From: Ignavibacteria bacterium UBA7675
GTDB lineage: Bacteria; Bacteroidota; Ignavibacteria; Kapaibacteriales; UB7675
Assembly (NCBI GenBank): GCA_002483085.1
Contig: DLHF01000046.1
Coordinates: forward strand, 5,313-69,312
DNA length: 64,000 nt
Reading direction: 5' to 3'
In this document: positions 20,221 through 42,736 of the stretch, piece by piece
How the letters are laid out: each line of letters begins with the position of its first letter
Numbering within the stretch: position 1 is the first letter of the stretch
Program-made: the position numbers and the translations under genes
Notes under the pieces: model-generated
Told to the model about the DNA's origin: nothing
Databases searched by the model: none
What the model saw: only the letters and a program-made list of their open reading frames with translations

Positions 20221-20590
20221 GCTCTCTGTATCTGCTCAAAAATGTAACAAGACTATATGTACCAGATATTCTCCTCTGCCGGTCAACGACAGGATGTAAT
20301 CAGCGCCTGGCCGGTGGTTGTCCCTGTGGAGGTACATCTCCGTAACAGCCAGTACACTGCACAGCACAACCCTGCACTCTATAGGCCGCTGCCGCGCGTA
20401 GAGTTCCAATTTACAAGGATTTTGCACAATGTCAAATTTCAGTAGCAAGCATTATCTTTTCCTGATAGATGCCGGAGCTTCAGGCGTTTTCCCCGGCCCC
20501 GGGCTACAGGCTTTGCCTGATACCGCAGATTTCCGCTCTCGTAAAAGCCGGAAAATGCGTATTTTAAAGCAACATTTTTTCGGAGTACGC

Positions 20591-22015
20591 ATGACTGTCA
20601 TGATCCAGCCCTACAAGCCCCTGAACAAGATACGCATTGTTACGGCGGCTTCCCTGTTCGATGGCCACGACGCAGCAATTAATATTATGCGCCGTATTCT
20701 GCAATCTACCGGTGCGGAGGTGATCCACCTCGGACACAATCGATCAGTGCAGGAAATCGTGGACTGCGCTATCCAGGAAGATGTCCAGTCCATCGCCATT
20801 ACAAGCTACCAGGGCGGCCACGTCGAGTATTTTAAGTATATGTACGACCTGCTGCACGAAAAAGGAGCTGGCCATATTAATATTTTTGGCGGCGGCGGCG
20901 GCACAATCCTGCCCTCGGAAATTGAAGAGCTGCACGCCTATGGTATCACTCGAATCTACTCCCCCGACGACGGACGCGCCCTTGGATTGCAGGGTATGAT
21001 CAATGATGTGATGGAGAAATCTGATGTTGTTCCACCCGTCTCCTTCGGAGACGATTTTGTGGAAAATGTTCGGGGCAAAAATGCTCTTGCGCTGGCTCAG
21101 GCTATCACCCTTATAGAAAACGATCCCGCTCGTTCGGCTCAGTTGCTCGCAGCGCTCGGCACGCCCGCCAAAGTAATTCCCGTGCTCGGCATCACTGGTA
21201 CTGGTGGCGCTGGGAAGTCGTCGCTTACCGATGAACTCGTGCGCCGCTTTCTCGAAGATTTCCCCGACAAAACTATTGCTGTGATGTCGGTGGACCCCTC
21301 CAAACGCAAAACCGGCGGAGCACTGCTCGGCGACCGTATTCGCATGAATGCCGTGGGCAATGAGCGCGTGTATATGCGTTCGTTCGCCACACGCGAAGCA
21401 AATGTAGCGCTGAACCGCAATGTGCGCACGTCTATCGATGTGCTGAAAGCCGCTGGCTTCGATCTCATTATCGTAGAAACTGCCGGTATCGGGCAAAGCG
21501 ATTCGCAAATTACCGATGTAGCCGATGTATCACTCTATGTGATGACTCCCGAATACGGTGCTGCCAGCCAGCTCGAAAAAATAGATATGATCGACTATGC
21601 CGATATTATCGCGCTGAATAAATTCGACAAACGCGGGGCTCTCGACGCTCTGCGCGATGTAAAAAAACAATACCAGCGCAGCCGTGGCCTCTGGAACATA
21701 AAGCCCGATGAAATGCCCGTGTACGGCTCCATTGCCTCGCAGTTCAACGACCCCGGCACCAATGCGCTGTACAGAGCGATCATCGATAAAATTATGGAAA
21801 AAGTACCGCTCGGATGGCAATCGTCGTTCTACTCTACCGATGAAATGAGCGAAAAAATTTACATTATTCCGCCCGACCGCACCCGATACCTCGCCGAAAT
21901 TGCAGAGGAATCGCAGCGCTACGATAAGCTCGTGGAAGAGCAATCAGATGTAGCTCGCAAGCTGTTTCAAATCAAAGGAACAATCGAAGTGCTGAAAGAG
22001 CGCGCAACCAAGTAA
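20591..22015 (+). CDS. B12-binding domain fused to MeaB/ArgK-type G-protein chaperone (N-terminal two thirds of an IcmF-like fused acyl-CoA mutase)
   Basis: ATG at 20591 (MTVMIQPY). B12-binding Rossmann domain with DxHxxG-type motif ([11 protein letters not shown]). GTPase P-loop [12 protein letters not shown], switch regions and NKFD. Confidence 0.85.
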
Positions 22016-22094: not shown

Positions 22095-22288
22095 GCGCTT
22101 CGGCCTCCGCCCTCGTGTTGCCTCTCCGCACCGCGCAGCACAGCCGCAGCATGGCTTTTCAACCGTCACCCGCAAGAAAAAGGCCACCCGCACATGCAAC
22201 GACGGCTGGCGGAAAACTTCCGAACTACACGACAACGGGTGTGCGACCGGCGACAGCGGCTGAACGCCAGAGCGAAGAAGCCCGTGCC
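22095..22288. repeat. composite repeat-family copy (module B forward + module A reverse)
   Basis: GCGCTTCGGCCTCCGCC...CTCTCCGCACCGCGCAGCACAGCCGCAGCATGG. Then GTGTGCGACCGGCGACAGCGGC...GAAGCCCGTGCC. Confidence 0.65.
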
Positions 22289-22436: not shown

Positions 22437-25400
22437 ATGAACATTGTACGCTCGCGCTGCCTTCTACTGATACTTTTGTACTGTCTTCTGGCCGCTGCAT
22501 CTCTTCCGGCTGTAGCTCAGCCCGACACGCGCGGGCAGGAGTTTTACCTCACCTTTCCACCTAATTTTCACAATAACCTCGACAATCCACAGGCCAGCCT
22601 TATCGACAGCCTGTATATTTTTATTGCAGCAACCGAACCAACAACAGGCCAGATTGCCTACCGAGACATCGACAACAACGCATTTGTCGTCAATTATTCG
22701 ATTACTGATCCCTCGCAGGTGTACACATTCGGCATACCGTGGATAGACTTTGAACTGCGTGGATTCAACGACAGCGGTACGCTTATCAGCTACCATCAAA
22801 GCGCGAGTATTGCTCCACAGTCCTTTCGCATTACCAGCAGCAAAGACGTAGCAGTCTACGCCCTGAATCGCGCCGAAACAACCAGCGATGCCATGCTCGT
22901 GCTGCCCACAGATGTGCTTGGTACAAAGTACCGCGTCATGGCGTACAATTCGGATTTTCGCGGCAATGAGGACATGGACACGCCTTCGCAACTGGCCGTT
23001 GTAGCCACGCGCGATAATACGGTGCTCACGATTCAGCCCACCGTGCCTGTGATGGGCTCCACACTGGGCACGATCACAGTACGCCTGAACGCAGGTAATT
23101 CCTACTTGCTACAGGCTGCTCCCGGCGGACAATTGCCCGACCTGACCGGCACACTTGTAGAGTCGACTCAACCAGTAGCTGTATTCGGCGGCCACCAGCG
23201 CACACGCCTGCCAGTGCAAGACCCCTCGATGAACTCTCGCGATTACCTCATCGAGCAGATTCCCCCGATAGATGTGTGGGGCAAAAGCTATATCCTCACG
23301 CCCTTTCCCCCACCCGATAACCAGCAGGAAGAAGTCGTCGATATCGTGCGTGTGCTCGCTGCCAACGACAATACACAAGTGTTCATCGCAGACGAGCTCA
23401 AAGCCACGCTTGCCGCAGGTGAAGTATATGAAGAACTGCTACAAACAGCGTCGTTGCTCACCGCTTCGGAGAATGTGCTTGTAGCACAGTACAAGCAGAC
23501 CTCGCGGGATGGCGGCAACCTGCGCCTCGCCGACCCGTTTATGATCATTGTCCCGCCTCGAAAGCAGTTCCTTCAGTCGTACCTGTGTATCAATGCACAA
23601 TCCTACGCAGATAAGCGCATTTATTTCCGGCAGTACATGACCCTGATATGCCACAAGAATTATGTTGCCTCGATGACAATCGACGGCGCGCAAGTCAACG
23701 CTGCCCTGTTCAAAGATATTCCCGGCACGTGCTACACATACGCTTGGGTTCCTACAAGCGACGGCTCGCATCATGTAGAAGGGCAAAATCCATTTGGCCT
23801 CTATGTGTATGGCTACGGCACATTGGATTCCTACGGCTATACCGGCGGAATGGCTTTCCACAAAGAAGATGAAGACTTCGTCCATGTTTCGTCGGATACC
23901 GTGCTCTGCACTGGCGACAGCCTACAGCTTTCCATCACAGGAGGCACTTCTTATTCGTGGTCGCCTGCCAACGGGCTGAGCTGTACCGACTGTGCAAACC
24001 CAGTAGCGAAGCCCCAAACAGCTACAACCTATAACGTGTCGTTCACCGATGCCTTTGGCTGCGAACACAAGCGCAGTATTGCGGTCGATGTACAGCCCTA
24101 TCCAAAGCCGGTGGTAAGCAGCGATACAACAATGTGCAGTGGGCAATCGGTTGTGCTCAAAGCTTCGGGTGGGCGCTTCTATCAGTGGTCGCCATCCAGT
24201 GGGCTGAGCTGCACCGATTGTGCATCGCCTACAGCAAACCCGACTAAAACAACGACATACACCGTGGTAATAAGCAACGGCGGTACGTGCTTTGCTACAG
24301 ACAGCGTCACGGTTGCCGTCCGCTTTGCTCCGATTGATGCTCTGCCATCCGATACACTGATGTGCACGAACGATTCCATAGCCTTTCATCTGCCGGCAGA
24401 AGGCTTTTCTTACAAGTGGACACCGGCTACAGGGCTGAGCTGTACCGATTGCCCTAATCCTATAGCTCGACCGACCAAAACGACAAAATACATTGTAGTA
24501 ATGACCAACGACGCTGGCTGCAAAGTCGCCAAAGCTGTGACGGTGACTGTGGTAGCTCTGCCGATTGTCAATATTACACGCGACCTTACGCTGTGCAGCA
24601 ACGATCCGCCGGTAAGGCTGCTCGCTAAAGGCGGTAATTATTACCAGTGGTCGCCCGCCGATGGGCTGAGCTGTACCGACTGCGCGAGCCCGCTCGCGAA
24701 ACCGTCGGCAACAACAACCTACACTGTACATATTTCTATTACCAATACCTGTGCGGCAACAACAACTGTCACTATTACTGTACCGCCCACACCGGTGCCG
24801 GATATTTCTACCGATACAACAGTGTGCCTGAATACTGCTGTGCAACTGCACGCTTCGGGCGGAACAACATACGCGTGGTCGCCTGCCGATGGACTGAGCT
24901 GCACCACCTGCCCCGATCCGCTCGCGCTTCCGCAGAAAAGCACCTTGTATCGCGTAGCAATAGCCAACGACGAAGGCTGCTCTGTAGAAGACAGCGTGCA
25001 AGTTACGGTGATTAGTCCTGCCGACATATCCGTGAGCCCCGATGTGGAAGTATGCCGGGGTTCTTCGGCTTCGCTGAGCGCTAGCGGTGGAAGCGCCTAC
25101 CAGTGGTCGCCCGCCGATGGGCTGAGCTGTACCGATTGCCCGGCTCCTGAGGCTACGCCGAACGAAACAACGATCTACACCGTTGTCATTACTGGCTCCG
25201 GCGGCTGTATGGTAGAGCGCTCCGTAGCTGTTACCGTCCTTCCTGCCCCTCAGCTTGTCGTCGGCCCGGATGCTTCTGTGTGCCGTGGACAAAGCACAGT
25301 TCTCCAGGCATCAGGAGGCGTAGATTATGAGTGGTGGCCTGCGACCAGCCTAAGCTGTAGTAATTGCTCCAACCCTACAGCTACTCCCACATCAACAACA

Positions 25401-26510
25401 CAGTATTATGTGCGGGCGTCGAATGGAAGTTGTTCGCAGATCGACTCCGTGATGGTAACAGTAGCCCCCTGCAATCTGAAAGCAGAGTTCTCTACAGAAG
25501 AATTTCCTCCGCTGCTGCTGTGCAATTCTGCCGAAGGCCGATGCGTATTTCGCAATACCGGAGAAGACCCGATTATCGTAACAAGCTGGCAAATCAGCGA
25601 GGATAAAACATCTTCCTTTGTGCTGCGCGAGCTTGGCCTGACACCGCCGTACACCCTTGCCCCGAGCGATTCGTTAGTGTTTGGCATCGGATTCCAGCCT
25701 CAGCAAACTGGCTCGCTATCAGCCTTGCTCACGATTACAGTACAGGACGCTCCAGTATTTACGCAAAAACTGTCGGGAGAGGGCTACAAAAGAACACTTT
25801 CTCTTTCGCTGGGACCGGACATCTACACAACAATCGGCGATACAATTGCACTGCATATTGTTGCTGCTTGCGACAACTGGAGCGAAGCGCAGATTAGTAA
25901 GATATTGCTCGATATTACCTATCCTATCCAATGGCTAGCCTACAGTGGTACGGCAACCGCCATCGATCCATCGTGGCAAGTGTCGGCTGCCGAACTTCCC
26001 GGCGCAGACCGCGAAGAAAAGACTTTGCACATCTCTGTTGAGGGCAGCCAGCCTCTGACTGCTAATGGCACGGTGGCGACTGTTTACATTATTCCATTCC
26101 TTACAACACAGCAAGTGTACACGCCCCGAGTCTCGGCTTCTGCCCCGGACCGGGAAGTCTGCGTGGCAACTGTTGCCGAAGCAAATTCAATCGACTTAAC
26201 ACTGTGCGTACCGCATCTGCGCCCCATACGCTACAGCGGCTCGGCCTACAAGTTTGAAATCGCAGGCGGCACAGCAGCTTCGGGCGAACATGTGCATGTG
26301 TATTACGGAGTAGCTCTCCAAGCACATTCCACAATTGAGCTCTACGACTGCCTTGGGCAATTGCTCCGCACTATCGACCTCGGAACGCTGGATGCAGGGG
26401 ACTACCGGCACGAGATAGAGATGCAGAACCTCTCACGTGGCATGTATATCATGCGCTATAAATCAGGGCCATACAGTCGCAGTATTCCTTTTCTCTTCGG
26501 CGCTGAATAG
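22437..26510 (+). CDS. giant T9SS cargo protein, paralogue 1: ~480-aa N-terminal domain (IgGFc-binding-N-like, tentative), 7 Cys-containing Ig-like repeats, conserved ~300-aa region, T9SS C-terminal sorting domain
   Basis: GGGGAGAAActATG at 22437 with signal peptide MNIVRSRCLLLILLYCLLAAASLPAVAQP. The listed ORF extends back through the repeat to 22062. Seven repeats of the type Y.WSP..GLSCTDC..P.A.P..TT.Y. C-terminus IELYDCLGQLLRTIDLG...GMYIMRYKSGPYSRSIPFLF. Confidence 0.8.
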   Translation: MNIVRSRCLLLILLYCLLAAASLPAVAQPDTRGQEFYLTFPPNFHNNLDNPQASLIDSLYIFIAATEPTTGQIAYRDIDNNAFVVNYSITDPSQVYTFGIPWIDFELRGFNDSGTLISYHQSASIAPQSFRITSSKDVAVYALNRAETTSDAMLVLPTDVLGTKYRVMAYNSDFRGNEDMDTPSQLAVVATRDNTVLTIQPTVPVMGSTLGTITVRLNAGNSYLLQAAPGGQLPDLTGTLVESTQPVAVFGGHQRTRLPVQDPSMNSRDYLIEQIPPIDVWGKSYILTPFPPPDNQQEEVVDIVRVLAANDNTQVFIADELKATLAAGEVYEELLQTASLLTASENVLVAQYKQTSRDGGNLRLADPFMIIVPPRKQFLQSYLCINAQSYADKRIYFRQYMTLICHKNYVASMTIDGAQVNAALFKDIPGTCYTYAWVPTSDGSHHVEGQNPFGLYVYGYGTLDSYGYTGGMAFHKEDEDFVHVSSDTVLCTGDSLQLSITGGTSYSWSPANGLSCTDCANPVAKPQTATTYNVSFTDAFGCEHKRSIAVDVQPYPKPVVSSDTTMCSGQSVVLKASGGRFYQWSPSSGLSCTDCASPTANPTKTTTYTVVISNGGTCFATDSVTVAVRFAPIDALPSDTLMCTNDSIAFHLPAEGFSYKWTPATGLSCTDCPNPIARPTKTTKYIVVMTNDAGCKVAKAVTVTVVALPIVNITRDLTLCSNDPPVRLLAKGGNYYQWSPADGLSCTDCASPLAKPSATTTYTVHISITNTCAATTTVTITVPPTPVPDISTDTTVCLNTAVQLHASGGTTYAWSPADGLSCTTCPDPLALPQKSTLYRVAIANDEGCSVEDSVQVTVISPADISVSPDVEVCRGSSASLSASGGSAYQWSPADGLSCTDCPAPEATPNETTIYTVVITGSGGCMVERSVAVTVLPAPQLVVGPDASVCRGQSTVLQASGGVDYEWWPATSLSCSNCSNPTATPTSTTQYYVRASNGSCSQIDSVMVTVAPCNLKAEFSTEEFPPLLLCNSAEGRCVFRNTGEDPIIVTSWQISEDKTSSFVLRELGLTPPYTLAPSDSLVFGIGFQPQQTGSLSALLTITVQDAPVFTQKLSGEGYKRTLSLSLGPDIYTTIGDTIALHIVAACDNWSEAQISKILLDITYPIQWLAYSGTATAIDPSWQVSAAELPGADREEKTLHISVEGSQPLTANGTVATVYIIPFLTTQQVYTPRVSASAPDREVCVATVAEANSIDLTLCVPHLRPIRYSGSAYKFEIAGGTAASGEHVHVYYGVALQAHSTIELYDCLGQLLRTIDLGTLDAGDYRHEIEMQNLSRGMYIMRYKSGPYSRSIPFLFGAE

Positions 26511-26599
26511 TGGGAAAACCAGCGTCGGTTTTGCGGGACACAATCATGCCGGGTATGTATTGGAGCTACCTACAGTTGATGACAAAAATAAAAAATGGT

Positions 26600-26732
26600 G
26601 GCACGGGCGTCGCTCGGGCGCTCGGCTCGTCGCTGTCACCGGTCGCAAAACCGCTGCGGTGGAGGTCGGCCAGCCACGCAACGGCAATGCTGCGCGGTGC
26701 GGAGACCCAAAGCAAGAGCGAAGACGGCGGCG
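26600..26732. repeat. compact full-length repeat element (module A forward + module B reverse, ~133 bp)
   Basis: GGCACGGGCGTCGCTCGGGCGCTCGGCTCGTCGCTGTCACCGGTCGCAAAACCGCTGCGGTGG...CCACGCAACGGCAATGCTGCGCGGTGCGGAGACCCAAAGCAAGAGCGAAGACGGCGGCGC. Coordinates may be off by 1 here (see rejected note). Confidence 0.7.
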
Positions 26733-26782
26733 CTCTTATTGCAAAAGCTAAAAAGCACGATGCTCAGCAGCACCAGGCTCTA

Positions 26783-29700
26783 TTGGCAGTTCGCGTGCTG
26801 ATCGTATTCTTGGCATTGGTATGTCTACCCGCTATGTGCAGCGCAGCGGGACAGCCCGACAACAGAGGCGTTGATTTTTACTTCACGTTCCTGCCCAATT
26901 ATCACAGCAACGACAACTCCAATATACGCGATAGCCTGTACCTTGTCATTGCCGCCGAAGAAGCAGCAACAGGTGTGATCACACTGCGCGATATTAACGG
27001 CACGGAGACAACGATAAATTTTTCTATTCCCGATCCGGCTACCGTCTACCGCACTGGGCTTCCGTGGCGCCCGTATGAACTGCGAGGCTGCAATCGCAAC
27101 GGCACTCTCAACTTCGGCGGAGCTGATAATCAGAATGGAAAAGTTGCTCCACAGTCCGTTCATATTACCTCGGATAAAGAGGTCGCTGTCTACGCGCTCA
27201 GCCAGGCTGCAAAAACCAGCGATGCAATGATGGTGCTTCCCACAGATGTTCTCGATAGCCTCTACTACGTGATGTCTTATTATTCCGATGCCCGCGTGGA
27301 AACTGATATATTCGGTACAAAACGGCTCACAGCACAAAGCACGCCTTCGCAATGCGCTATTACAGCAGTAGAGGACAACACAGTTGTCACGATCACGCCT
27401 TCGGTTCGCGTTCGCAATGGAATAACAACGCCTTTTTCGATTACACTACAGCGGGGCGACTCCTACCTGCTCCAAGCCGATATGTACACCAATATTCCCA
27501 ACGCCGATCTTACAGGTACAGCAATAGAATCGACAAAGCCTGTTGCGGTATTTGGCGGGCATCAGCGCAGCCTGCTCCCGGTTTCCTCTACCACACTTGT
27601 TTCCCGCGATTTTCTAGCCGAGCAAATGCTCCCCGTTTCCTCCTGGGGTAAGCGCTATCTGCTCACGCCATTCCCTTCGCCGCCCAATCTGGCTGCCGGG
27701 TCCATGGATGTGTACAGGATATTAGCAGCGCACGACAACACAGAAATTCGCATCGGCGAAGCAGTAGTGGCTACCCTTCGCGCAGGCCAGTATTACCAAG
27801 CTCAGCTCAAGGAACCAGCCCTCGTAGAAGCATCGCAAGACGTGCTGGTAGCGCAGTACAAAGGCTCATCGCAGGAGAGCGACACGGACCGCCTCAGCGA
27901 CCCATTTTTTATTCTCGTGCCACCTCTCAAACAATTCCTGAAGTCATATACTTTTGCTGCTACGCAGGTGACAGCAACGCCCGCTGTGTACCGCGAACAG
28001 TATATCACAATCTTCTGCCCATCGGCAGCCTGTAGCACGATTGCTCTCGACGGCATCCAAGTAGACCAATCGCTGTTCAAACCCGTACCGCTGTCGTGCT
28101 ATTCGTATGCGTGGATTCGCGTGGGCGATGGAGCGCACAGAATTGAAGCCGAGAAAAACTTTGGGTTGTATGTGTATGGCTACGGTTTTGCAGACTCCTA
28201 TGGCTATGTAGGCGGTATGGCTTTTACCGCAGAAAAAGAACCTGCTATTGTGGCTCTGGGCGACACGACTCTGTGCCGTGGCGATACGGCGCGGCTCTCG
28301 GCTTCTGGTGGTGTATTGTACGCGTGGACGGGCGACCATCTGTCGTGTACGGATTGCCCCAATCCTACAGCCGTACCCGAGGTAAGCACTCTGTACACTG
28401 TGGCGATTACCGACGAAAATGGCTGTGCTTACGAGCGCAAAATTTCTGTGCGGGTAAATCAACCACCAATTGCGGTGTGTAGTAGCGATACGGCAATCTG
28501 TACCGGCTCGCAGGTGACAATTTCGGCATCGGGAGGGTCGGGCGTGCAGTGGTCGCCCCCAGAAGGTTTGAGCTGTGTGGATTGCCCCGCGCCAATAGCT
28601 TCCCCCCGCCAGCCGACAATGTACGTGGCTACTGTTGTCAATACATTTGGCTGCACGGCAGTCGACAGCGTGTTTGTGGATGTTTCTCCTTTTCCCATTG
28701 CTGCTATCGCCAACGACACAACCGTATGCACCGATACACCTGTGCTGCTTCAGGCATCCGGCGGTACGCGGTACGTTTGGTTTCCATCCAATGGTTTGAG
28801 CTGTACAAACTGTTCCTCGCCAACCGCGATCACAAGCCAAACTCGCATGTACTATGTGCAGGTGTTCAACGATGCGGGATGCAGCGTACTTGATTCCGTA
28901 CTTGTGACAATTAAACCATGCCAAAGTATTTCTTCGATCAATAGCGCAGTGGTATTTGGGGAGTTTTCCCTGTGCGATTCCGTCGAACAATTATGCTCAG
29001 TGAGCAATGTGGGCAACGCACCATTGGATGTTTTTTCGTGGGCACTGCGCGGTAATAATGCGACGGCATTTTCCGCCTTCCCTGTGTTGCCCAATGGCAG
29101 CGACTTTCCTGTTACGCTCGCGCCCGGCGATTCGCTGCATTTTCGGATTGTGTTTCATCCCGAATACACGGGCTCTCTTACAGCACAGCTCGCCGTACAG
29201 ACATCTGGTGCGCCAAGCGAGGCAGTGTGTGTATTGCAAGGTGGCGGCGTAAAAGGAACTGTCGCTTTTTCGCTTGTACCGCGCATCGCGGCAACGGAAG
29301 CTGGTGCTGTTGCAGGCTTCGATATTCGCGCCGACAACGGCGACTGGAACAACGCCGCACTCAACCAGCTCGTGCTTGAAGTCAACTATCAGACCGAATG
29401 GCTGGCGTATGCTGGCACAATTATTCCGGGGGCGGCTGTCGACAATACATGGCAGTTTACTGCGGAAGAACAACTGGAAGGCAATGGCACGTACACAACC
29501 GTTATCACAGCCGTGGGCGCGACGCCGCTGGCAGCATCTGGCACAATTGCGACAGTGCAAATGGATGTATTTTTAGACACCGACAGGCTGCTTACTCCTA
29601 CTCTTCGCGTTGTGCCCATAGGACGCGAACGCTGCGTGGAAGTGCAGACAACGGCAGAGCCTCTTGATGTTTCTACATGCGCCCGGCAATTGCGCCCAAT

Positions 29701-29980
29701 CCGGTACACCGGTCAGCCGCTGTTTGTCGAGATGCCGGGCGGCACAGTAGAAACAGATGGTATGATAGAACTCCGCTACGGCGTTCCTTTTGCCAGCGAT
29801 GTACATATCGAAGTGTACACAGCTATGGGGCAGATCCTTTACAAGTACAGCACTTCGTACAGCGGAGCTACACAAGATCAGTATGTCGTCGACCTGCGGC
29901 ACTGCGCTCAGCAAATGCTTATCGTGCGGTGCTGGATCGCAGGTCGATGGATGACAAAGCAGGTGTTGCTGGTGAGATAA
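26783..29980 (+). CDS. giant T9SS cargo protein, paralogue 2: same N-terminal domain, 3 Cys-containing Ig-like repeats, conserved C-region, T9SS C-terminal sorting domain
   Basis: The listed ORF starts at 26510 but reads through the repeat element. The true start is probably TTG/GTG near 26783-26795, giving signal peptide (M)AVRVLIVFLALVCLPAMCSAAG. N-domain motifs DNRGVDFYFTFLPNYH, DAMMVLPTDVL, GGHQRSLLPV, YGYGFADSYGYVGGMAF. Tail IEVYTAMGQ... Confidence 0.7.
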   Translation: MAVRVLIVFLALVCLPAMCSAAGQPDNRGVDFYFTFLPNYHSNDNSNIRDSLYLVIAAEEAATGVITLRDINGTETTINFSIPDPATVYRTGLPWRPYELRGCNRNGTLNFGGADNQNGKVAPQSVHITSDKEVAVYALSQAAKTSDAMMVLPTDVLDSLYYVMSYYSDARVETDIFGTKRLTAQSTPSQCAITAVEDNTVVTITPSVRVRNGITTPFSITLQRGDSYLLQADMYTNIPNADLTGTAIESTKPVAVFGGHQRSLLPVSSTTLVSRDFLAEQMLPVSSWGKRYLLTPFPSPPNLAAGSMDVYRILAAHDNTEIRIGEAVVATLRAGQYYQAQLKEPALVEASQDVLVAQYKGSSQESDTDRLSDPFFILVPPLKQFLKSYTFAATQVTATPAVYREQYITIFCPSAACSTIALDGIQVDQSLFKPVPLSCYSYAWIRVGDGAHRIEAEKNFGLYVYGYGFADSYGYVGGMAFTAEKEPAIVALGDTTLCRGDTARLSASGGVLYAWTGDHLSCTDCPNPTAVPEVSTLYTVAITDENGCAYERKISVRVNQPPIAVCSSDTAICTGSQVTISASGGSGVQWSPPEGLSCVDCPAPIASPRQPTMYVATVVNTFGCTAVDSVFVDVSPFPIAAIANDTTVCTDTPVLLQASGGTRYVWFPSNGLSCTNCSSPTAITSQTRMYYVQVFNDAGCSVLDSVLVTIKPCQSISSINSAVVFGEFSLCDSVEQLCSVSNVGNAPLDVFSWALRGNNATAFSAFPVLPNGSDFPVTLAPGDSLHFRIVFHPEYTGSLTAQLAVQTSGAPSEAVCVLQGGGVKGTVAFSLVPRIAATEAGAVAGFDIRADNGDWNNAALNQLVLEVNYQTEWLAYAGTIIPGAAVDNTWQFTAEEQLEGNGTYTTVITAVGATPLAASGTIATVQMDVFLDTDRLLTPTLRVVPIGRERCVEVQTTAEPLDVSTCARQLRPIRYTGQPLFVEMPGGTVETDGMIELRYGVPFASDVHIEVYTAMGQILYKYSTSYSGATQDQYVVDLRHCAQQMLIVRCWIAGRWMTKQVLLVR

Positions 29981-30019
29981 TGCATCTCGATGCACTCGCG
30001 ATACATCTTGCTCAACTTA

Positions 30020-30226
30020 CTAGTTTTCTATATCATCCTTAATTATAACATATGACGCTTCATTTGCATACTGGGCTTTCACCTGATTATACAACATCGG
30101 GTCATTCTCAACAGCATCGATCTGCACTTGGTGTTGCTGTTCGATGGTATTGATAGTGTGAGTGGTATAAACACCCGGGCTAAAAATCAGCGCGAGGTAC
30201 AGCATGACGCACAAAAGAGCGAACAT
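30020..30226 (-). CDS. small single-pass membrane protein (68 aa), hypothetical
   Basis: GGAGAAccaccATG Shine-Dalgarno-like spacing. MFALLCVMLYLALIFSPGVYTT hydrophobic N-terminus then hydrophilic tail. No recognisable family. Confidence 0.35.
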   Translation of the reverse strand: MFALLCVMLYLALIFSPGVYTTHTINTIEQQHQVQIDAVENDPMLYNQVKAQYANEASYVIIKDDIEN

Positions 30227-30493
30227 GGTGGTTCTCCAAAGTGGTATTGAAAAATATGAATAGGTGGTCCGCACCCGCGACGGGCGCATGGATAACAGTA
30301 CAGGCGATTAAGTTTTGGTTATGGCCATGGGCTAACAGCCGTATGAGCCTGGTGTCGACTGCATACGTGAACATTTAGAGAAGGCACAGCCCTCCTTTCC
30401 GCATAGAGTGGAAAATGTTGTGTTAATCTATGATCAATGCGATTCTGACAAATACTGAATGGGAAAAATCAGATTGGTTAGAATGAAGCTAAC

Positions 30494-30774
30494 GATTGAT
30501 TAGAGTTTGAGAAGGTATGATTGGTTTGCATAGCGGCCTCCGGTGTAACGATTATTATTGCACTGACAGTTGATTAGGAGCTCAGAACGTTGTGGTTGGT
30601 TTCCACAAAGCCTTCATTGCGATTAATTGACGTTATCAGTTAGTTGAGAAACTCAGAAGGTATGGTTGGTTCCCATAGTCTTCACTGCGATGATTGTAAG
30701 TTATCAGTTAGTTAAAAGTTCAGAAGGTAATGGCTGGTTTCCATACAATCCTTCACTGCGATGATTAACATTAG
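30494..30774. repeat. array of four degenerate ~69-73-bp tandem direct repeats upstream of the 30873 gene
   Basis: Units about 30494-30566, 30567-30636, 30637-30705, 30706-30774. The last two are cagttagttRARARYtcagaaggtaWggYtggttYccatA..cttcactgcgatgatt. Identity decays towards the 5' units. Confidence 0.75.
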
Positions 30775-30872
30775 TGTCTCTTTTTCTCGTGAACTTGGGG
30801 CAAATTTAATGTAATTTGACGGTATATACAAGAGATAAAATGGGTACCATGTTTTTTTTGTAGAATTTTAGT

Positions 30873-32360
30873 ATGAATTTTCTAAAACAAGTTATTAACC
30901 TATTAGACAAATACGAACAGAAATTAGAGTTTTTCGACGAGGCTGATCTTGCGAATACAACCTTCCACAAGCTATATGACGGTGTAAAATCAGGCAAATA
31001 CTCAACCGATGAAGAAGCCTGCGGCGACATCTACCAGCTTGAAGCACCGGATGCACGCTATCGCAATCTTAAATCGCGCCTAAAGAAAAAGTTAGCGGGA
31101 AATCTTTTCTTTCTAAGAATTGAACAGCCGGAACATTCGGAATACCTCTCCACAGTTCATGACATATTCCATCAAGTTTACATATTACATACCCTTGGTA
31201 GTTTAGGGGCATCCGTGGCAGCTAATGAGGTTGCCGAACAGATTTTTGCAAAGGCACAAAAGTTCCACCTAACCAATGCCGCTGTGGATAGCCTTCTGAC
31301 ACTTCGCAAGCGTGGAGCCTATCACGGTCAGTCAAAGGAATATCTACGCTACAGCGAATTACTCGACTACTATATTAGAGTACAAAGTGCCGAGATAAAA
31401 GCATCAAGCTATATAGAATCGATTAACATAATATTCACAAATACTAAATCTGATTCTCCCGGTATTATAGAACAATTAGAACATGCTGTCAGCGAAGTCT
31501 CTAATTTGTCAGATGAATACAAATCTCATTTCTTATTTCTCACTCATTACCGACTAAGCATTTACCTAAGCCAACTTAAAAAAGACAGTCTATTAGCACT
31601 GCAAGTATGTAATACTATAGATGAGTTCTATCACAAGTACCCTCATTTAGTAACTACGACCAGGATAGGTGAAATTGCTCTTGACAAAACCATGGCATAT
31701 TTCTATTTACGCCGCTATCGAGAGGGCGTTGAATATGCAAGACCCTATCTGCCAATATTTCGGGAAGGCGGGAATACATGGTTCACATTTAGAGAAACAT
31801 TCTGCTGGCTTCTAATCCATGGACAATGTTATACCGAGGCTCGCGAAGTTTACGAGGGGACAACTACTCACATCAGCTTCGACACTGGCATTGCCCATCG
31901 CAAAGAAACATGGCAAATCTTTGGCTTGTATCTCGCCTTTGTCGAAGGTGCAGAAACACCGGACATGGACAAGTTCATGAAAGACATGGAGGTGTACCGC
32001 GCCGACAAAAGTGGAGCCTATGTCACCGTGCTGGCTCTGAGCATTCTCGTTCTACTCCGCAAAGGCGACTACGACAGTATTATTACCCGCGATGAATACC
32101 TTAAAAAATACCTCACACGCTATCTGCGGGGTGAGGATCACGCACGTGGTGCTGCATTCTTCAAACTGCTGCGCCTTCTCGCAAAAAACGACTTTAGCTT
32201 GGATGCTGTAAAGAAGTACGGAGAGAAACACATTGCCGTGCTGTACGACGCTTCGCTCCCGCTCGACGACTACGAGGTAATGCCCTACGAACGCATGTGG
32301 GAATATGTCGTAGAGACGTTGACCGGCTCTGCGGGAACGGCTCTTCGCAGCATTAGCTAA
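30873..32360 (+). CDS. hypothetical all-alpha protein (495 aa), AT-rich orphan gene
   Basis: Long ORF in a locally ~40% GC stretch. No motifs I can assign. Helix-rich composition with Y/F/L periodicity suggestive of TPR-like packing (tentative). Confidence 0.55.
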   Translation: MNFLKQVINLLDKYEQKLEFFDEADLANTTFHKLYDGVKSGKYSTDEEACGDIYQLEAPDARYRNLKSRLKKKLAGNLFFLRIEQPEHSEYLSTVHDIFHQVYILHTLGSLGASVAANEVAEQIFAKAQKFHLTNAAVDSLLTLRKRGAYHGQSKEYLRYSELLDYYIRVQSAEIKASSYIESINIIFTNTKSDSPGIIEQLEHAVSEVSNLSDEYKSHFLFLTHYRLSIYLSQLKKDSLLALQVCNTIDEFYHKYPHLVTTTRIGEIALDKTMAYFYLRRYREGVEYARPYLPIFREGGNTWFTFRETFCWLLIHGQCYTEAREVYEGTTTHISFDTGIAHRKETWQIFGLYLAFVEGAETPDMDKFMKDMEVYRADKSGAYVTVLALSILVLLRKGDYDSIITRDEYLKKYLTRYLRGEDHARGAAFFKLLRLLAKNDFSLDAVKKYGEKHIAVLYDASLPLDDYEVMPYERMWEYVVETLTGSAGTALRSIS

Positions 32361-32483
32361 ACCGCCCCAACAACGGAAGTTTGCAGCATCCGCAGCACAG
32401 CAGAATATATGTTGCGGATTATTCGGTGTTCCTGTTTATTTTCCCTCTTGCTCCCAAGCACAGACTAATCGATGGAGGGAAAC

Positions 32484-34634
32484 ATGCTCACCAGCAACTT
32501 GTTTCGCAGTATCTACTGCATGGCGTTATGTACCATGCTGGCCGTATCTCTTCTGGCACAAACTGTCCCCGACAGCCGGGGGCGGGAATTTTACTTTACA
32601 TTCCCCCCCAACTTCCACGAAAACAACAATCGGGACAGCTTGTTTATTTTCATTGCAGCAGCACAGCCTACAACTGGAAATATAGCCTATCGCAATAGCA
32701 GCGGTACACGAATAAACCGTGTATTTACCATCAGCGACGTATCCAAAGTTTATTCTTTCGCTGTATCCTATCGCAATATCGAACTCGGCAGTGCATTCAA
32801 CAACACGGGCAGCAACCAGAACGGGAAAGTAGCGCCGCAGTCGTTCCATGTTACAGCCGATCAGGATATCGCCGTGTATGCGCTCAGCTACAGCAACAGA
32901 ACAAGCGATGCCATGATGGTGCTACCTACCGATGTGCTCGGCACGGAATATATGGTACTCGCCTACAACAGCGATGGACTCGACAAAGAGCCAACACCCT
33001 CGCAGCTCGCTGTGGTTGCTCCAGAAGATAATACCGATGTTGTTATCACCCCTTCCACTCGCGTGCTCAATGGCTCTATGGCGCCGATCAGCATTCGCCT
33101 GAACAGCGGAGACTCCTACCTGCTACAAGCCGACGTATCGCAGGCAGCTCCCTACAATGATCTTACAGGATCAACAATCAGCACGACTAAACCTGTAGCG
33201 GTGTTCGCCGGGCATCAGCGCACTGTTGTGCCAGTACGCTCATCCGCGCTCATTTCCCGCGACTATCTTTTAGAGCAGCTCCCGCCTGTGCAAGCGTGGG
33301 GACGACGGCATATACTTACGCCCTTTCCCCTTCCCGCAGGAATCCCCGCCACTGAAAATGATCTGTACCGCGTGCTTGCAGCACACGACAATACAGCAGT
33401 AGCGGTAAATGGCACACAACTCGTTGTCCTACGCGCAGGCGAGATTTATGAAGCCCCTCTGCGAACCGCAGCCGTAGTAGAAGCAAATATGGAAGTACTC
33501 GTAGCACAGTATAAACGCTCTTCAAGCCAGCAGAGCACGGACCTCCGGATCAGCGATCCGTTTATGCTCGTCGTGCCGCCGGTGCGACAATACTTGTCGT
33601 CGTATCTCTGCATCAACGCACAGAACTACGACGGTGGGAAAGTGTATCAGCAGCAGTATCTCACCATCATCTGCCCCGCTTCGTTTGTACACACTGTCAC
33701 ACTCGATGGCCAAGCAGTCGATCCCAACCGTTTCCTGCCGGTGCCTACGTCCTGCTATTCCTATGCGATTATTCCAGTACAGGACGGAGTGCACAAAGTA
33801 GAGGCTGCTACTGAAATTGGTATTTATATCTATGGCTATGGGCAGGCTGATTCTTATGGCTATGTGGGTGGAATGGCTTTTAGAAAACACCTCGGTGAAG
33901 GTGGAAATATTGCTTTTACAATGGCTCCCAGCTTCGTACATGCGTCGCCGGGCGATACGATTGCACTCGATATTCACGCCAGCAGCCTTGAATGGCAGGA
34001 TATGGCAGCAGTTTCATTTTCGATGGAACTCGCGTATAAATTTTCGTGGATGACCTACGCAGGAACGTTCACACGCGGGAATGTGCTCGACGATACGTGG
34101 TCGATAGAAGTACAGGAAACGGAAGGCGATGCGCCCGGAACGAAAAAAACTACCATTGTCGCCAGCGGCAGCACACCAGTAGCACAGGACGGAACCATTG
34201 CTACCATCCGCATGCTGCTTTTCATGAATACCGATACAGTGTACACGCCTTCGTTATCAGCATCGGTCAATGGCGATATTAACTGCGTAAAAACAACAGC
34301 AGCATCGCTACATATCGGCCTTTCGCAATGCGTTATCAATCTCAGCCCCATCCACTACTCCGGCAGTGGTTATGGGCTCGGGCAGGTGGCAAATGCCAGT
34401 GCATCCACAGGTGTACTTCGCCTGCGCTACAGCGTGGGCATTGAAGCCGAAACTCGCATCGAACTCTTCAACAGCCTCGGCGAGCGAATAAGCACACTTG
34501 TCGATACCGTAAAACCGCCGGGTGCATACGAGCAAGAAGCAGATGTCTCGCAATACGGAGCAGGTGCTTATTTTATCAGAATGGTATCGGGGCCCTACAG
34601 CCACACCCTGCCGATAGTATTGGGATCCAGATAA
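32484..34634 (+). CDS. T9SS cargo protein, paralogue 3: shared N-terminal domain and C-region, no Cys-Ig repeats, T9SS C-terminal sorting domain
   Basis: GGAGGGAaacATG at 32484 with signal peptide MLTSNLFRSIYCMALCTMLAVSLLAQT. Motifs DSRGREFYFTFPPNFH, DAMMVLPTDVLGTEY, AGHQRTVVPV, YGYGQADSYGYVGGMAF. Tail IELFNSLGE...GAYFIRMVSGPYSHTLPIVLG. Confidence 0.8.
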   Translation: MLTSNLFRSIYCMALCTMLAVSLLAQTVPDSRGREFYFTFPPNFHENNNRDSLFIFIAAAQPTTGNIAYRNSSGTRINRVFTISDVSKVYSFAVSYRNIELGSAFNNTGSNQNGKVAPQSFHVTADQDIAVYALSYSNRTSDAMMVLPTDVLGTEYMVLAYNSDGLDKEPTPSQLAVVAPEDNTDVVITPSTRVLNGSMAPISIRLNSGDSYLLQADVSQAAPYNDLTGSTISTTKPVAVFAGHQRTVVPVRSSALISRDYLLEQLPPVQAWGRRHILTPFPLPAGIPATENDLYRVLAAHDNTAVAVNGTQLVVLRAGEIYEAPLRTAAVVEANMEVLVAQYKRSSSQQSTDLRISDPFMLVVPPVRQYLSSYLCINAQNYDGGKVYQQQYLTIICPASFVHTVTLDGQAVDPNRFLPVPTSCYSYAIIPVQDGVHKVEAATEIGIYIYGYGQADSYGYVGGMAFRKHLGEGGNIAFTMAPSFVHASPGDTIALDIHASSLEWQDMAAVSFSMELAYKFSWMTYAGTFTRGNVLDDTWSIEVQETEGDAPGTKKTTIVASGSTPVAQDGTIATIRMLLFMNTDTVYTPSLSASVNGDINCVKTTAASLHIGLSQCVINLSPIHYSGSGYGLGQVANASASTGVLRLRYSVGIEAETRIELFNSLGERISTLVDTVKPPGAYEQEADVSQYGAGAYFIRMVSGPYSHTLPIVLGSR

Positions 34635-34679
34635 TCGCAACAACACAACATCGTGGCTGTATGTTGCAAAGAGATAGGT

Positions 34680-34752
34680 GGCACGGGCGTCTTTGTGACG
34701 CCCGCCCAGTCGCTGTCACCGGTCGCACGAGCCGGTTAGCCGCTGGCCAAAA
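34680..34752. repeat. solo module-A repeat copy
   Basis: GGCACGGGCGTCtttgtGACGCCCGCCCAGTCGCTGTCACCGGTCGCACGAGCC. The internal stem-loop is maintained by compensatory change. Confidence 0.6.
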
Positions 34753-34782: not shown

Positions 34783-35193
34783 CTATTTTACAAAATAGAG
34801 ATCAGCATCGGTGTCTTTGTCTTCTTTGTAATCGTATAGTAACACACGAAATGTTAGCTTCTCGTCGGTAAGCGTGCGAACCTCGCATGAATCACCGTCT
34901 ATGACCAGTGTCCTATCGCCATTGGTCAGTTGCCATACCGTAGTTCCAATCGTAGTCCCTTCTTTTTTGGACTCTGCCCTACCATCGCTGTGAAAAGTCA
35001 CGGCGTCTATTCCAATAACGTCGCTCGCATCTTCCCCACTTACGGCTCGTAGTGCCCGCTGAAACGTCCACGAATGAGAAAGCAGAATATCCCGACGTGT
35101 TTTCTGGGTTGCAACAGGGTCGTCTGAGCAACTGGCAAACAGGAACGACACGGCCAACAGTACAATCAGGATAAGTGCCGGTTTGTTTTTCAT
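34783..35193 (-). CDS. lipocalin-like domain lipoprotein (paralogue a)
   Basis: Lipoprotein signal MKNKPALILIVLLAVSFLFASCSDD. Lipocalin_4-like LLSHSWTFQRAL...WQLTNGDRTLVIDGDSCEVRTLTDEKLTF. Confidence 0.65.
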   Translation of the reverse strand: MKNKPALILIVLLAVSFLFASCSDDPVATQKTRRDILLSHSWTFQRALRAVSGEDASDVIGIDAVTFHSDGRAESKKEGTTIGTTVWQLTNGDRTLVIDGDSCEVRTLTDEKLTFRVLLYDYKEDKDTDADLYFVK

Positions 35194-35372: not shown

Positions 35373-35798
35373 CTACTTGTACGTAAGGTCGACGGGATAT
35401 GTCACCGTTTGATATTCGATGTTCGCCTTGCCCTTGAATTCACTTTCGCTCAGAGAAACGATAGTCACAACAAATTCATCGCTCGTCCCTTGGTCAAAGA
35501 CAATCTGTGTATCGTTGGAAGCGAGTGCCCAAGTAGATTCGAACGAGCCTTCGCTGCCTTCTATCTGCGCAGTGCCGTCGCTGCTGAATTTAATCTTCTT
35601 CATATACGATTCTATAATCGTTTTTACATCCACACCCATCGAGGTCGCAGTTTTCAGCTCCCACGTTTTGAGCAGAAGAAGCTCTTTTCTCGATTTATTC
35701 CCCGAAGCGGGATTGTCGTCGTCTTTGGAGCAACCTACGAGCAGCGACAAGCTGGCTATAACAACAAGAACGAGTGGAAGTACATAGCGTCGATTCAT
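35373..35798 (-). CDS. lipoprotein with lipocalin-like architecture (paralogue b, diverged)
   Basis: Internal start MNRRYVLPLVLVVIASLSLLVGCSKDD. LLLLKTWELKTATS...TWALASNDTQIVFD...EFVVTIVSLSESEFK. Confidence 0.55.
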   Translation of the reverse strand: MNRRYVLPLVLVVIASLSLLVGCSKDDDNPASGNKSRKELLLLKTWELKTATSMGVDVKTIIESYMKKIKFSSDGTAQIEGSEGSFESTWALASNDTQIVFDQGTSDEFVVTIVSLSESEFKGKANIEYQTVTYPVDLTYK

Positions 35799-42482: not shown

Positions 42483-42736
42483 ATTTTTCTACCAGCAATC
42501 GCGCGGGCATACTGCCGCAGTACAACGCCGGAACAAAAGATAGCAGTAGGTAGAATGCTCCCTTCCAGCGACAGAAGCGAACATCACATCCAAAAACATT
42601 GTACAGAACAGCGTTCGCAACATCGTATCGACTGCGTAGAATGATGTTTTTTTTGCCTGTACTACTGGCGCACGATTTTCTATCTTGCATATTGAACGGA
42701 GTGCGATTTCGTTCATTTATTATCATAGGGTTCTTT

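What the first reader, a model, noticed from the sequence alone, without database searches (positions are those of the whole stretch)
22437..34634. Three tandem paralogous T9SS cargo proteins with a shared ~480-aa N-terminal domain and variable Cys-Ig repeat number (7 / 3 / 0)
All three share signal peptide, N-terminal domain motifs (D.RG.EFY.TF.PN.H, DAM.VLPTDVL, PSQLAVVA, GHQR..LPV, WGKRY.LTPFP, SDPF...VPP, SCYSYA, YGYG.ADSYGY.GGMAF), a conserved ~300-aa C-region and a T9SS sorting domain. They differ by insertion of 7, 3 or 0 ~80-aa repeats (C.G.S..L.ASGG..Y.W.P..GLSC.DC..P.A.P..TT.Y.V...GC). N-domains are only ~45-50% identical, so the family is old and diversifying. Repeat-family elements sit at each gene junction and could mediate rearrangement. 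It looks like a surface adhesin/S-layer-like family under diversifying selection. The N-domain resembles the bacterial IgGFc-binding-N-terminal domain; this is a tentative identification.
Basis: partly seen in the sequence, partly recalled or inferred. Interest (0 to 1): 0.65.

Follow-up and report, generated by a model that had tools for sequence, protein, structure and literature searches.

The report
Conserved trio of T9SS surface proteins
Three related genes for secreted cell-surface proteins, with the same head domain on stalks of 7, 3 or 0 repeats, are real, but they form an old, stably conserved gene cluster of an already catalogued protein type, not a rapidly diversifying family.

Summary
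Three + strand genes (22437-26510, 26783-29980, 32472-34634) encode a signal peptide, a ~450-aa PF17517 "IgGFc_binding" domain (E 1e-66 to 1e-70), then 7, 3 or 0 four-Cys Ig_7 repeats of 76-77 aa, a cohesin-like beta-sandwich and a T9SS type-A-like C-terminal domain (CTD). N-domains are 51-54% identical.

Corrections:
- The genes are not strictly tandem. A conserved 68-aa membrane-protein ORF (- strand), an AT-rich spacer and a 495-aa TPR-like ORF lie between genes 2 and 3.
- Gene 3 also lacks the ASH/choice-of-anchor-D Ig domain.
- Each CTD alone scores below the Pfam/TIGRFAM cut-offs. Homology is supported only at profile level, and gene 2's CTD has lost the conserved G-x-Y region.
- The junction repeats are a window-wide intergenic repeat family.

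The diversifying, variable-repeat reading is not supported. Every orthologue counted keeps 7, 3 or 0 repeats at ~50% identity, and one metagenomic contig carries the whole cluster in the same gene order. N-domain orthogroups have bootstrap 95-100, and the N-domain is the best-conserved part.

Homologues in NCBI are already named "T9SS type A sorting domain-containing protein" or "IgGFc-binding protein" (Kapabacteria/Ignavibacteria MAGs). This is a new member of a known kind; the biochemical function remains unknown.

The parts
22437..26510 (+). g1, 1357 aa. Signal peptide aa 1-27; PF17517 head aa 28-474 (nt 22518-23858); 7 Ig_7 Cys repeats aa 482-1012 (nt 23880-25472); ASH/choice-of-anchor-D-like Ig aa 1013-1117; cohesin-like beta-sandwich aa 1118-1260; T9SS type-A-like CTD aa 1261-1357.
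   Evidence: The identical protein P0135 is on record. Orthologues P0136-P0140 all have 7 repeats.
26783..29980 (+). g2, 1065 aa from TTG 26783 (the ORF is open from 26510; NCBI's call P0014 is 1144 aa). Signal peptide aa 1-22; PF17517 head aa 23-481; 3 Ig_7 repeats aa 488-713 (nt 28244-28921); ASH-like Ig aa 714-823; beta-sandwich aa 824-969; divergent CTD aa 970-1065 that lacks the near-invariant P-G-x-Y and G-x-Y-x-x-R positions.
   Evidence: Orthologues P0009-P0013 all have 3 repeats.
30020..30226 (-). Conserved 68-aa ORF with a hydrophobic N-terminus (MFALLCVMLYLALIFSPG...), transcribed divergently from the 495-aa ORF.
   Evidence: tblastn finds it at the same relative position in L004/L005, L003 and L007, at 43-52% identity, E 1e-14 to 1e-18.
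30227..30872 (.). AT-rich (41% GC) intergenic region with a 68-bp x 2.6 tandem repeat at 30581-30762. A short conserved segment (TTGG.GCAAATTTA.T.TA.TT) lies just upstream of the 495-aa ORF.
   Evidence: The tandem repeat is unique in the window and absent from the orthologous loci.
30873..32360 (+). 495-aa all-helical, TPR-like protein with no signal peptide, no Pfam hit and only an insignificant NCBIfam hit. It is the conserved upstream partner of g3-type genes.
   Evidence: It lies directly upstream of the g3 orthologue in L002, L003, L004 and L007.
32472..34634 (+). g3, 720 aa (NCBI's call P0001 starts 4 codons later). Signal peptide aa 1-30; PF17517 head aa 31-470 (nt 32562-33881); no Ig_7 repeats and no ASH domain; cohesin-like beta-sandwich aa 477-623; T9SS type-A-like CTD aa 624-720.
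   Evidence: The AlphaFold2 model has mean pLDDT 85.9 with seven strands at 635-717. Foldseek hits cohesin modules 2w1n, 4fl4 and 3kcp.
22095..22260 (-). Copy of the dispersed intergenic repeat family, upstream of g1.
26597..26733 (+). Copy of the dispersed intergenic repeat family, between g1 and g2. It lies inside the N-terminal extension of NCBI's g2 call.
34677..34727 (+). Partial copy of the dispersed intergenic repeat family, downstream of g3.

Best explanation
The region is a conserved gene cluster of an uncultured FCB-group bacterium. The closest named homologues come from Candidatus Kapabacteria and Ignavibacteria MAGs. The cluster encodes three anciently diverged paralogues of one surface-protein type.

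Proposed pathway:
1. Each protein is made with a Sec signal peptide.
2. It crosses the outer membrane through the type IX secretion system, recognised by its C-terminal type-A-like sorting domain.
3. [quoted passage not shown]

On this model the C-terminal end is cell-proximal. The conserved PF17517 head is held away from the cell on a stalk of fixed length. The stalk is seven disulfide-type Ig_7 domains plus an ASH-type Ig in g1, three plus one in g2, and none in g3. Each ends in a cohesin-like beta-sandwich next to the sorting domain. The head is presumably a binding module for an unknown ligand.

The g3-type gene forms a conserved unit with an upstream cytoplasmic TPR-like protein and a divergently transcribed 68-aa membrane protein. 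This unit may regulate or assist it.

Shown here: the domain architecture, family-level CTD homology, conservation of the 7/3/0 repeat numbers, of the gene order (one fully sequenced contig, L004) and of the three orthogroups, and the presence of other T9SS cargo genes in the window.

Inferred: actual secretion, CTD cleavage and anchoring, the stalk role of the repeats, ligand binding by the head, and any role of the TPR and small proteins.
For: - Domains: PF17517 at E 1e-66 to 1e-70 over the full profile; Ig_7 above cut-off in g1 and g2; HYDIN/ASH and choice-of-anchor-D hits in g1 and g2.
- Signal peptides: hydrophobic N-termini are followed by a conserved (A|Q)..PD.RG start in the window proteins and their orthologues. 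The model has helix 5-26.
- CTD: the family profile hits PDB Por CTD chains 8glj_D and 8glk_D over residues 5-74 of 75, at E 0.008 and 0.016. hhalign against the CTDs of four other window proteins gives probability 95.2%, E 2.8e-8. The model has seven beta-strands at 635-717 with pLDDT above 90. Orthologues P0002, P0004, P0005, P0008 and P0010 carry PF18962 on record, and NCBI names relatives 'T9SS type A sorting domain-containing protein'.
- Other T9SS cargo in the window: the S8 protease at 59804-62158 scores 32.8 bits on Por_Secre_tail, above the cut-off of 27.
- Conservation: L004 carries the order g1(7) - g2(3) - small ORF - TPR - g3(0) at about 50% identity. Repeat counts are fixed within each orthogroup. 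The NJ tree gives bootstrap 96, 100 and 95.
- Per-domain identity to orthologues: N-domain 58-61%, g1 Ig_7 array 57%, g2 Ig_7 array 53%, C-terminal domains 28-43%.
- The T9SS mechanism is taken from the review PMC10202324.
Against: - No single copy reaches the curated Pfam or TIGRFAM CTD cut-off.
- g2's CTD lacks the conserved G-x-Y region that corresponds to motif D, so its secretion is doubtful.
- No T9SS core gene lies in the window, and the genome could not be inspected further.
- The PF17517 domain has no known biochemical function. The IgG binding that gave it its name has been contradicted (PMC11796319).
- Fold searches of the whole g3 model gave only generic multi-beta-sandwich matches, with TM-scores of 0.1-0.2 normalised to the query.
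- The cohesin similarity is at fold level only: no Pfam Cohesin hit and no PDB sequence hit.
Confidence: 0.7

Rival explanations
1. This is a fast-evolving adhesin or S-layer-like family under diversifying selection, in which repeat number changes between strains and the junction repeat elements drive rearrangement.
For: The paralogues differ in repeat number. Repeat elements lie upstream of g1, between g1 and g2, and downstream of g3. The wider PF17517/Ig_7 family shows many repeat numbers, from 1 to at least 8.
Against: Repeat number is invariant within each orthogroup at about 50% identity: 6/6, 6/6 and 8/8 proteins. The orthogroups have bootstrap 95-100. Repeats are conserved position by position. 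The N-domain is the slowest-evolving part. The junction repeats occur at about 19 sites in 64 kb at unrelated genes. No dN/dS test was possible because the sequences are saturated.
Confidence: 0.07
2. The PF17517 domain is an uncharacterised enzyme, for example one acting on a polysaccharide or a cell-surface polymer. The three proteins would then be secreted or anchored enzymes, not adhesins.
For: The N-domain is the most conserved part. It has many invariant polar or charged positions across 49 sequences: E104, S145, T175-P-S177, Q219, D230, R250, R263-D264, D297, D362 and the S-Y-G-Y-x-G-G motif. Other T9SS cargo genes in this window encode hydrolases, namely S8 proteases.
Against: There is no sequence or fold match to any catalytic family. 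The literature assigns no activity to the domain.
Confidence: 0.15
3. The three paralogues are subunits of one heteromeric surface structure, such as a layered coat or a filament. They would assemble through the cohesin-like module, with the TPR-like protein and the 68-aa protein as dedicated assembly or regulatory factors.
For: The trio and its gene order are co-conserved: directly in L004, and across further contigs by matching contig lengths. A cohesin-like fold precedes the CTD. The TPR partner is strictly adjacent to g3-type genes in this clade.
Against: No dockerin-like partner was seen. L003 and L007 carry only the g3 module at that locus. Homologues of the TPR protein in Bacteroidota are not next to PF17517 genes. 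A beta-sandwich before the CTD is common in T9SS cargo (RgpB's IgSF domain is an example from my own knowledge) and need not mediate assembly.
Confidence: 0.08

Closest known systems
Bacterial PF17517 (IgGFc_binding / FCGBP-N1) proteins with a T9SS type-A sorting domain, as annotated by NCBI in Kapabacteria, Ignavibacteria and Bacteroidota MAGs
   Same: The same N-terminal domain, full-length and highly significant. The same modular plan: head, variable middle, C-terminal sorting domain. Many homologues of 38-52% identity are on record with PF17517 + PF19081 + PF18962.
   Different: Here three differentiated paralogues (7, 3 and 0 repeats) are kept together in a fixed order with a TPR-like gene and a 68-aa gene. 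The CTDs are divergent and sub-threshold, and g2's is aberrant. In other homologues the middle region is a lectin (PF00139, PF03388, PF18483) or an ASH domain instead of Ig_7 repeats.
Human FCGBP N-terminal domain (FCGBP-N1)
   Same: It is a member of the same Pfam family, PF17517. The literature notes that the domain also occurs in gliding bacteria (PMC11796319).
   Different: FCGBP is a eukaryotic mucus protein built of vWD assemblies. Its IgG binding is disputed, the role of N1 is unknown, and the mouse protein lacks the domain. No function can be transferred.
Cytophaga/Flavobacterium large surface proteins with Ig_7 (CHU_C-associated) repeats and type-B CTDs (PF13585), such as the SprB/RemA-class gliding adhesins
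   Same: Both have tandem Ig-like repeats that act as a stalk for T9SS-exported surface proteins. The Ig_7 family is named for its association with CHU_C.
   Different: Here the sorting domain is type-A-like, not type B. The proteins are much shorter, and there is no evidence of gliding genes in the window. One distant hit, P0157, shows the type-B combination.
Porphyromonas gingivalis type-A cargo such as RgpB (functional domain, Ig-like domain, CTD)
   Same: The order is the same: functional domain, beta-sandwich, then a seven-stranded Ig-like CTD. The expected processing by PorU is the same (PMC10202324).
   Different: The functional domains are unrelated. The motif B 'PNP' start is absent from this clade's CTDs. 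Cleavage and anchoring have not been tested.

Membership tests
PF17517 IgGFc_binding (FCGBP N-terminal domain) family | A significant match to the Pfam HMM above the gathering score (25.6 bits), over most of the profile. | tested here: met
   231.9, 238.7 and 224.3 bits, covering profile positions 1-297 of 297 in all three proteins.
PF19081 Ig_7 (CHU_C-associated Ig-like domain) repeats | A match above the gathering score (27.3 bits), in tandem units of about 80 aa. | tested here: met
   g1 scores 83 bits in 5 stretches; g2 scores 32.6 bits; g3 has none. The four-Cys motif occurs 7, 3 and 0 times with a period of 76-77 aa.
T9SS type-A cargo (PF18962 / TIGR04183 CTD) | The C-terminal domain matches PF18962 or TIGR04183 at the curated cut-off. 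| tested here: not met
   Pfam gives 19.2 bits (g1), no hit (g2) and 17.1 bits (g3), against a cut-off of 27. TIGR04183 gives 15.8, none and 12.8, against 23.
T9SS type-A cargo (PF18962 / TIGR04183 CTD) | Homology of the C-terminal ~80 aa to bona fide type-A CTDs at profile level. | tested here: met
   hhalign of the clade's CTD profile against the CTDs of four other window proteins gives probability 95.2%, E 2.8e-8. One of those four is above the Pfam cut-off. The family profile hits PDB CTD chains 8glj_D and 8glk_D at E 0.008 and 0.016. Several orthologues have PF18962 on record.
T9SS type-A cargo (PF18962 / TIGR04183 CTD) | A seven-stranded Ig-like beta-sandwich fold at the extreme C-terminus (PMC10202324). 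| tested here: met
   The g3 model has seven strands between residues 635 and 717, with block pLDDT of 78-94. This is a predicted model only.
T9SS type-A cargo (PF18962 / TIGR04183 CTD) | Conserved C-terminal motifs D and E, which are needed for secretion (PMC10202324). | tested here: inconclusive
   g1, g3 and all the orthologues aligned keep P-G-x-Y and G-x-Y-x-x-R. g2 alone lacks G49, G63 and Y65, and no frameshift explains this. The motif B 'PNP' start is absent in the whole clade. I assigned the motifs by eye.
T9SS type-A cargo (PF18962 / TIGR04183 CTD) | An N-terminal Sec signal peptide. | tested here: inconclusive
   Each protein has a hydrophobic N-terminus with an A-x-A-like site before a conserved mature start, and the model has helix 5-26. 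No signal-peptide predictor was available.
T9SS type-A cargo (PF18962 / TIGR04183 CTD) | The genome encodes the T9SS core machinery (SprA/Sov, PorV, PorU, GldKLMN). | not testable with these tools
   No core gene lies in the 64-kb window. Other cargo-like genes are present.
Cohesin module (PF00963) | A sequence match to the cohesin HMM, or a specific dockerin partner. | tested here: not met
   No Pfam hit and no PDB sequence hit. There is only fold-level similarity to 2w1n, 4fl4 and 3kcp, with Foldseek probability 1.0 and TM-scores of 0.33-0.44 normalised to the target. It should be called cohesin-like by fold only.
S-layer protein | An S-layer homology or lattice-forming domain, or very high expression with self-assembly. 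| not tested
   No SLH or S-layer family appeared in the Pfam or NCBIfam scans. Expression and assembly cannot be assessed from sequence.

The most novel reading that the evidence does not exclude
The conserved unit of a 68-aa exported or membrane peptide, a cytoplasmic TPR-superhelix protein and the g3 gene could be a peptide-sensing regulatory module that controls a T9SS surface protein. It would be analogous to the divergently transcribed small peptide plus TPR receptor pairs of Gram-positive RRNPP systems. In this reading the 7/3/0 trio is a deliberately length-graded display of one binding head. The TPR protein belongs to a large family of about 500-aa proteins in Bacteroidota that is entirely unannotated, so a function found here would extend to thousands of proteins.
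Probability: 0.07. Interest if true: 0.6.

Novelty: new member of a known kind. Interest (0 to 1): 0.3.

Why it matters
These are further members of an abundant but functionally blank class: T9SS cargo proteins that carry the FCGBP-N/PF17517 head. The useful result is comparative. The head is the most constrained part. The stalk length (7, 3 or 0 Ig_7 domains) has stayed fixed since an old triplication. The shortest paralogue travels with a TPR-like protein and a small membrane protein. Together these give a defined, conserved locus in which to test what the PF17517 domain does, which also bears on the unexplained N-terminal domain of human FCGBP. On its own the finding does not change current understanding.

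Tried and rejected
2. I tested a frameshift as the cause of g2's odd CTD and rejected it, because the other two frames contain stops and show no CTD motifs.
3. I asked whether the TPR partner plus PF17517 pairing is general. It is not. In 80 Bacteroidota, Kapaibacterium and other loci the partner homologue is not adjacent to a PF17517 head; only CTD or C-region matches occur nearby.
4. I looked for a specific relative of the partner. Only weak TPR matches turned up and generic TPR folds. Rap and AimR gave TM-scores of about 0.5 normalised to the target, which is not discriminating.
5. I tested the 68-bp tandem repeat as a conserved regulatory element. It is unique in the window and absent from the orthologous spacers.
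6. I folded three copies of the dispersed junction repeat. None gave a convincing structure (z-scores +1.27, -1.91 and +0.55). Rfam found only a tRNA in the window.
7. An exact look-up of g3 failed because of a different start codon.
8. I did not attempt dN/dS, because paralogues and the available orthologues are 50-66% identical in protein and synonymous sites would be saturated.
9. The sigma-70 promoter scan was uninformative: 6 sites found against 15 expected.

Full report
**What is there.** The interval holds three large + strand ORFs.
- g1 runs from 22437 to 26510 (1357 aa, ATG start).
- g2 ends at 29980. Its reading frame is open from 26510, but the only in-frame start next to a signal peptide is TTG at 26783, which gives 1065 aa (MAVRVLIVFLALVCLPAMCSAAGQPDNRG). 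NCBI's own call (P0014, 1144 aa) begins 79 codons upstream, inside an intergenic repeat element. The orthologues do not support that extension.
- g3 runs from 32472 to 34634 (720 aa; NCBI's call P0001 starts four codons later).
- The region has 51-54% GC, except for a stretch of about 41% GC at 30-32 kb.

**Domain content.**
- All three proteins match Pfam PF17517 (IgGFc_binding) over the entire profile, at E 1.3e-68, 1.1e-70 and 2.7e-66.
- The motif L-S-C-x-x-C occurs 7, 3 and 0 times with a period of 76-77 aa.
- The units match PF19081 Ig_7 above its cut-off in g1 and g2. Each unit has four conserved cysteines, and units are 36-51% identical to one another.
- After the repeats, g1 and g2 have a HYDIN/ASH or choice-of-anchor-D type Ig domain, which scores below the curated cut-offs. 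g3 lacks this domain.
- All three then have a beta-sandwich of about 145 aa and a terminal domain of about 97 aa.
- Identity between paralogues is 51-54% in the head, 37% in the ASH domain, 32-35% in the beta-sandwich and 19-33% in the terminal domain. These are old paralogues, not an assembly artefact.

**The sorting domain.** Taken singly, the C-termini fail the curated thresholds. Por_Secre_tail scores 19.2 bits (g1), nothing (g2) and 17.1 bits (g3), against a cut-off of 27. TIGR04183 scores 15.8, nothing and 12.8, against 23. Family-level evidence is positive:
- A profile of g3 and 48 homologues hits two solved 'Por secretion system C-terminal sorting domain' chains (8glj_D and 8glk_D) over residues 5-74 of 75.
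- A profile of this clade's C-termini aligns with the C-termini of four other proteins in the same window at hhalign probability 95.2%, E 2.8e-8. One of those four, the S8 protease at 59804-62158, passes the Pfam cut-off at 32.8 bits.
- The AlphaFold2 model of g3 (mean pLDDT 85.9) ends in seven beta-strands at 635-717. This is the fold described for type-A CTDs (PMC10202324).
- Several orthologues carry PF18962 on record, and NCBI names relatives 'T9SS type A sorting domain-containing protein'.

g2 is the exception. It alone lacks three positions that are at least 90% conserved (G49, G63 and Y65 of alignment A4), in the region corresponding to the secretion-critical motif D. No frameshift explains this.

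**The genes are not simply tandem.** Between g2 and g3 lie three features:
- A 68-aa ORF on the - strand (30020-30226) with a hydrophobic N-terminus.
- A 646-bp AT-rich spacer containing a 68-bp x 2.6 tandem repeat (30581-30762).
- A 495-aa ORF (30873-32360) with no signal peptide, no Pfam hit and only an insignificant NCBIfam hit (E 0.058, 12.5 bits against a cut-off of 352).

The 495-aa protein is predicted to be all-helical (pLDDT 85.1). It has weak TPR sequence matches and generic TPR-superhelix fold matches.

**Comparative evidence.**
- Locus L004, a metagenomic contig, carries the same order: a 1384-aa protein with 7 repeats, a 1082-aa protein with 3, the small ORF on the opposite strand, a 513-aa TPR-like protein, and a 731-aa protein with no repeats. 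Protein identity to the window is only 49-54%.
- Every g1-type protein found (P0135-P0140) has 7 repeats with the same spacing. Every g2-type protein (P0009-P0014) has 3. Every g3-type protein (P0001-P0008) has 0.
- A neighbour-joining tree of the head domain recovers the three orthogroups with bootstrap 96, 100 and 95, and the trio as a clade at 100.
- The g1 repeat array is 57% identical to its orthologue position by position. This is higher than any pair of repeats within the protein. There has been no recent expansion or homogenisation.
- Between orthologues at about 50% overall identity (L003 and L004), the head is the best-conserved part at 58-61%. The ASH, beta-sandwich and CTD parts are 28-44%.
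- Matching contig lengths indicate g1-g2 adjacency on two further contigs, g2-TPR adjacency on two further, and TPR-g3 adjacency on three further. TPR-g3 adjacency is seen directly in L002, L003, L004 and L007.
- In L003 and L007 only the unit of small ORF, TPR gene and g3 is present at the locus.

**Junction repeats.** Their two core motifs occur 10 and 9 times in the 64-kb window, against fewer than 0.2 expected, and the copies lie at many unrelated gene junctions. They show no convincing secondary structure. They are a general dispersed intergenic repeat of this genome and give no specific support for rearrangement of these genes.

**Interpretation.** The best-supported reading is a conserved cluster encoding three differentiated T9SS type-A-like cargo proteins. 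They present the same PF17517 head on stalks of fixed, different length. Export through Sec and T9SS, CTD removal by PorU, and anchoring or release are inferred from the established pathway (PMC10202324); none of this was shown here. The head's activity is unknown. The literature says only that the FCGBP-N1 domain also occurs in gliding bacteria, that its role is unclear, and that FCGBP's IgG binding has been contradicted (PMC11796319). Searches for PF17517 or IgGFc_binding in bacterial contexts found nothing useful. Fold searches of the full model gave only generic beta-sandwich matches, apart from cohesin modules matching the C-terminal part.

They are weighed in the structured fields. The diversifying-adhesin model is contradicted by the orthologue data.

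**Known or new.** Hundreds of homologues with the same head and sorting domain are already in public databases. Many are named by NCBI or JGI as 'T9SS type A sorting domain-containing protein' or 'IgGFc-binding protein', from Candidatus Kapabacteria, Ignavibacteria and Bacteroidota MAGs. The window's proteins themselves are on record from a 232-kb NCBI contig, without names. This is therefore a new member of a known kind. The fixed 7/3/0 trio and its conserved companions are a modest new observation within a small clade. Taxonomy is inferred only from the names of homologues.

Noticed in passing
window 30873-32360 (+); loci L008-L087: The 495-aa TPR-like ORF belongs to a large family of uniformly ~500-aa proteins with no Pfam or NCBIfam model. 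A profile search found 3663 cluster representatives at E<=1e-3 and 1785 at E<=1e-30, mostly full-length matches. At least 80 species-level loci carry it, in Hymenobacter, Pontibacter, Rufibacter, Adhaeribacter, Saprospiraceae, Haliscomenobacter and others. The N-terminal motif N-L-K-S-R-L-K-K-K-L is nearly invariant. In those genomes the gene is not next to PF17517 genes.
   Followed up: partly
window 30020-30226 (-): An unannotated 68-aa ORF with a hydrophobic N-terminus is conserved at 43-52% identity at the same position. It is divergent from the TPR-like gene in L003, L004/L005 and L007.
   Followed up: partly
window 30581-30762: A 68-bp tandem repeat of 2.6 copies (75% matches) lies in the AT-rich spacer upstream of the TPR-like gene. 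It is unique in the window and absent from the orthologous spacers.
   Followed up: yes
window-wide, e.g. 2267, 5823, 10724, 16078, 22123-22260, 26629-26705, 34709, 36607, 42450, 44934, 46613-46777, 52826, 56844, 58542, 62274: A dispersed intergenic repeat family has two core motifs, GTCGCTGTCACCGGTCGCA (10 hits) and TGCTGCGCGGTGCGGAGA (9 hits), against fewer than 0.2 expected by chance. The spacing between the motifs is variable, and there is no significant fold.
   Followed up: partly
window 34783-35193, 35373-35798, 35917-36309 (all -): Three paralogous small lipoprotein-like ORFs have lipobox-type ...SC/GC/NC-S sites. The first and third are 51% identical, and the second is 29-34% identical to the others. 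Three similar small ORFs sit at the same place in L002. Pfam gives no match above the curated cut-off for the two scanned.
   Followed up: partly
window 20429-22015 and 36817-38826: The ~14.8-kb block described here lies between a fused B12-binding/MeaB GTPase gene and a methylmalonyl-CoA-mutase-family catalytic gene. These two are functionally linked partners, separated by the block.
   Followed up: no
window 38887-40191 (+): An AAA_21/AAA_15 (AbiEii/OLD-like) ATPase gene lies in a lower-GC stretch (47%) between the mutase gene and the DAO oxidoreductase gene. In the related contig L002 those two genes are directly adjacent, so this looks like a lineage-specific insertion, possibly a defence gene.
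   Followed up: no
window 118-1728, 42599-44821, 48906-52733, 59804-62158: Four further secreted-protein genes have T9SS-type C-termini: a propeller protein, a BNR/sortilin protein and two S8 proteases. Only one reaches the Pfam Por_Secre_tail cut-off (32.8 bits; one other scores 24.7, and two are seen only as FlgD_ig). CTDs in this lineage appear to be systematically divergent from the curated models.
   Followed up: partly
window 22437-22530, 32472-32570 and orthologues: The predicted signal-peptide cleavage exposes an N-terminal Gln (A|Q..PD.RG) in g1, g3 and most orthologues. This resembles the Bacteroidetes 'Q-rule', which was reported not to hold across the whole FCB group (PMC5837995 abstract). 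g2 reads ...CSAAGQPD instead.
   Followed up: no
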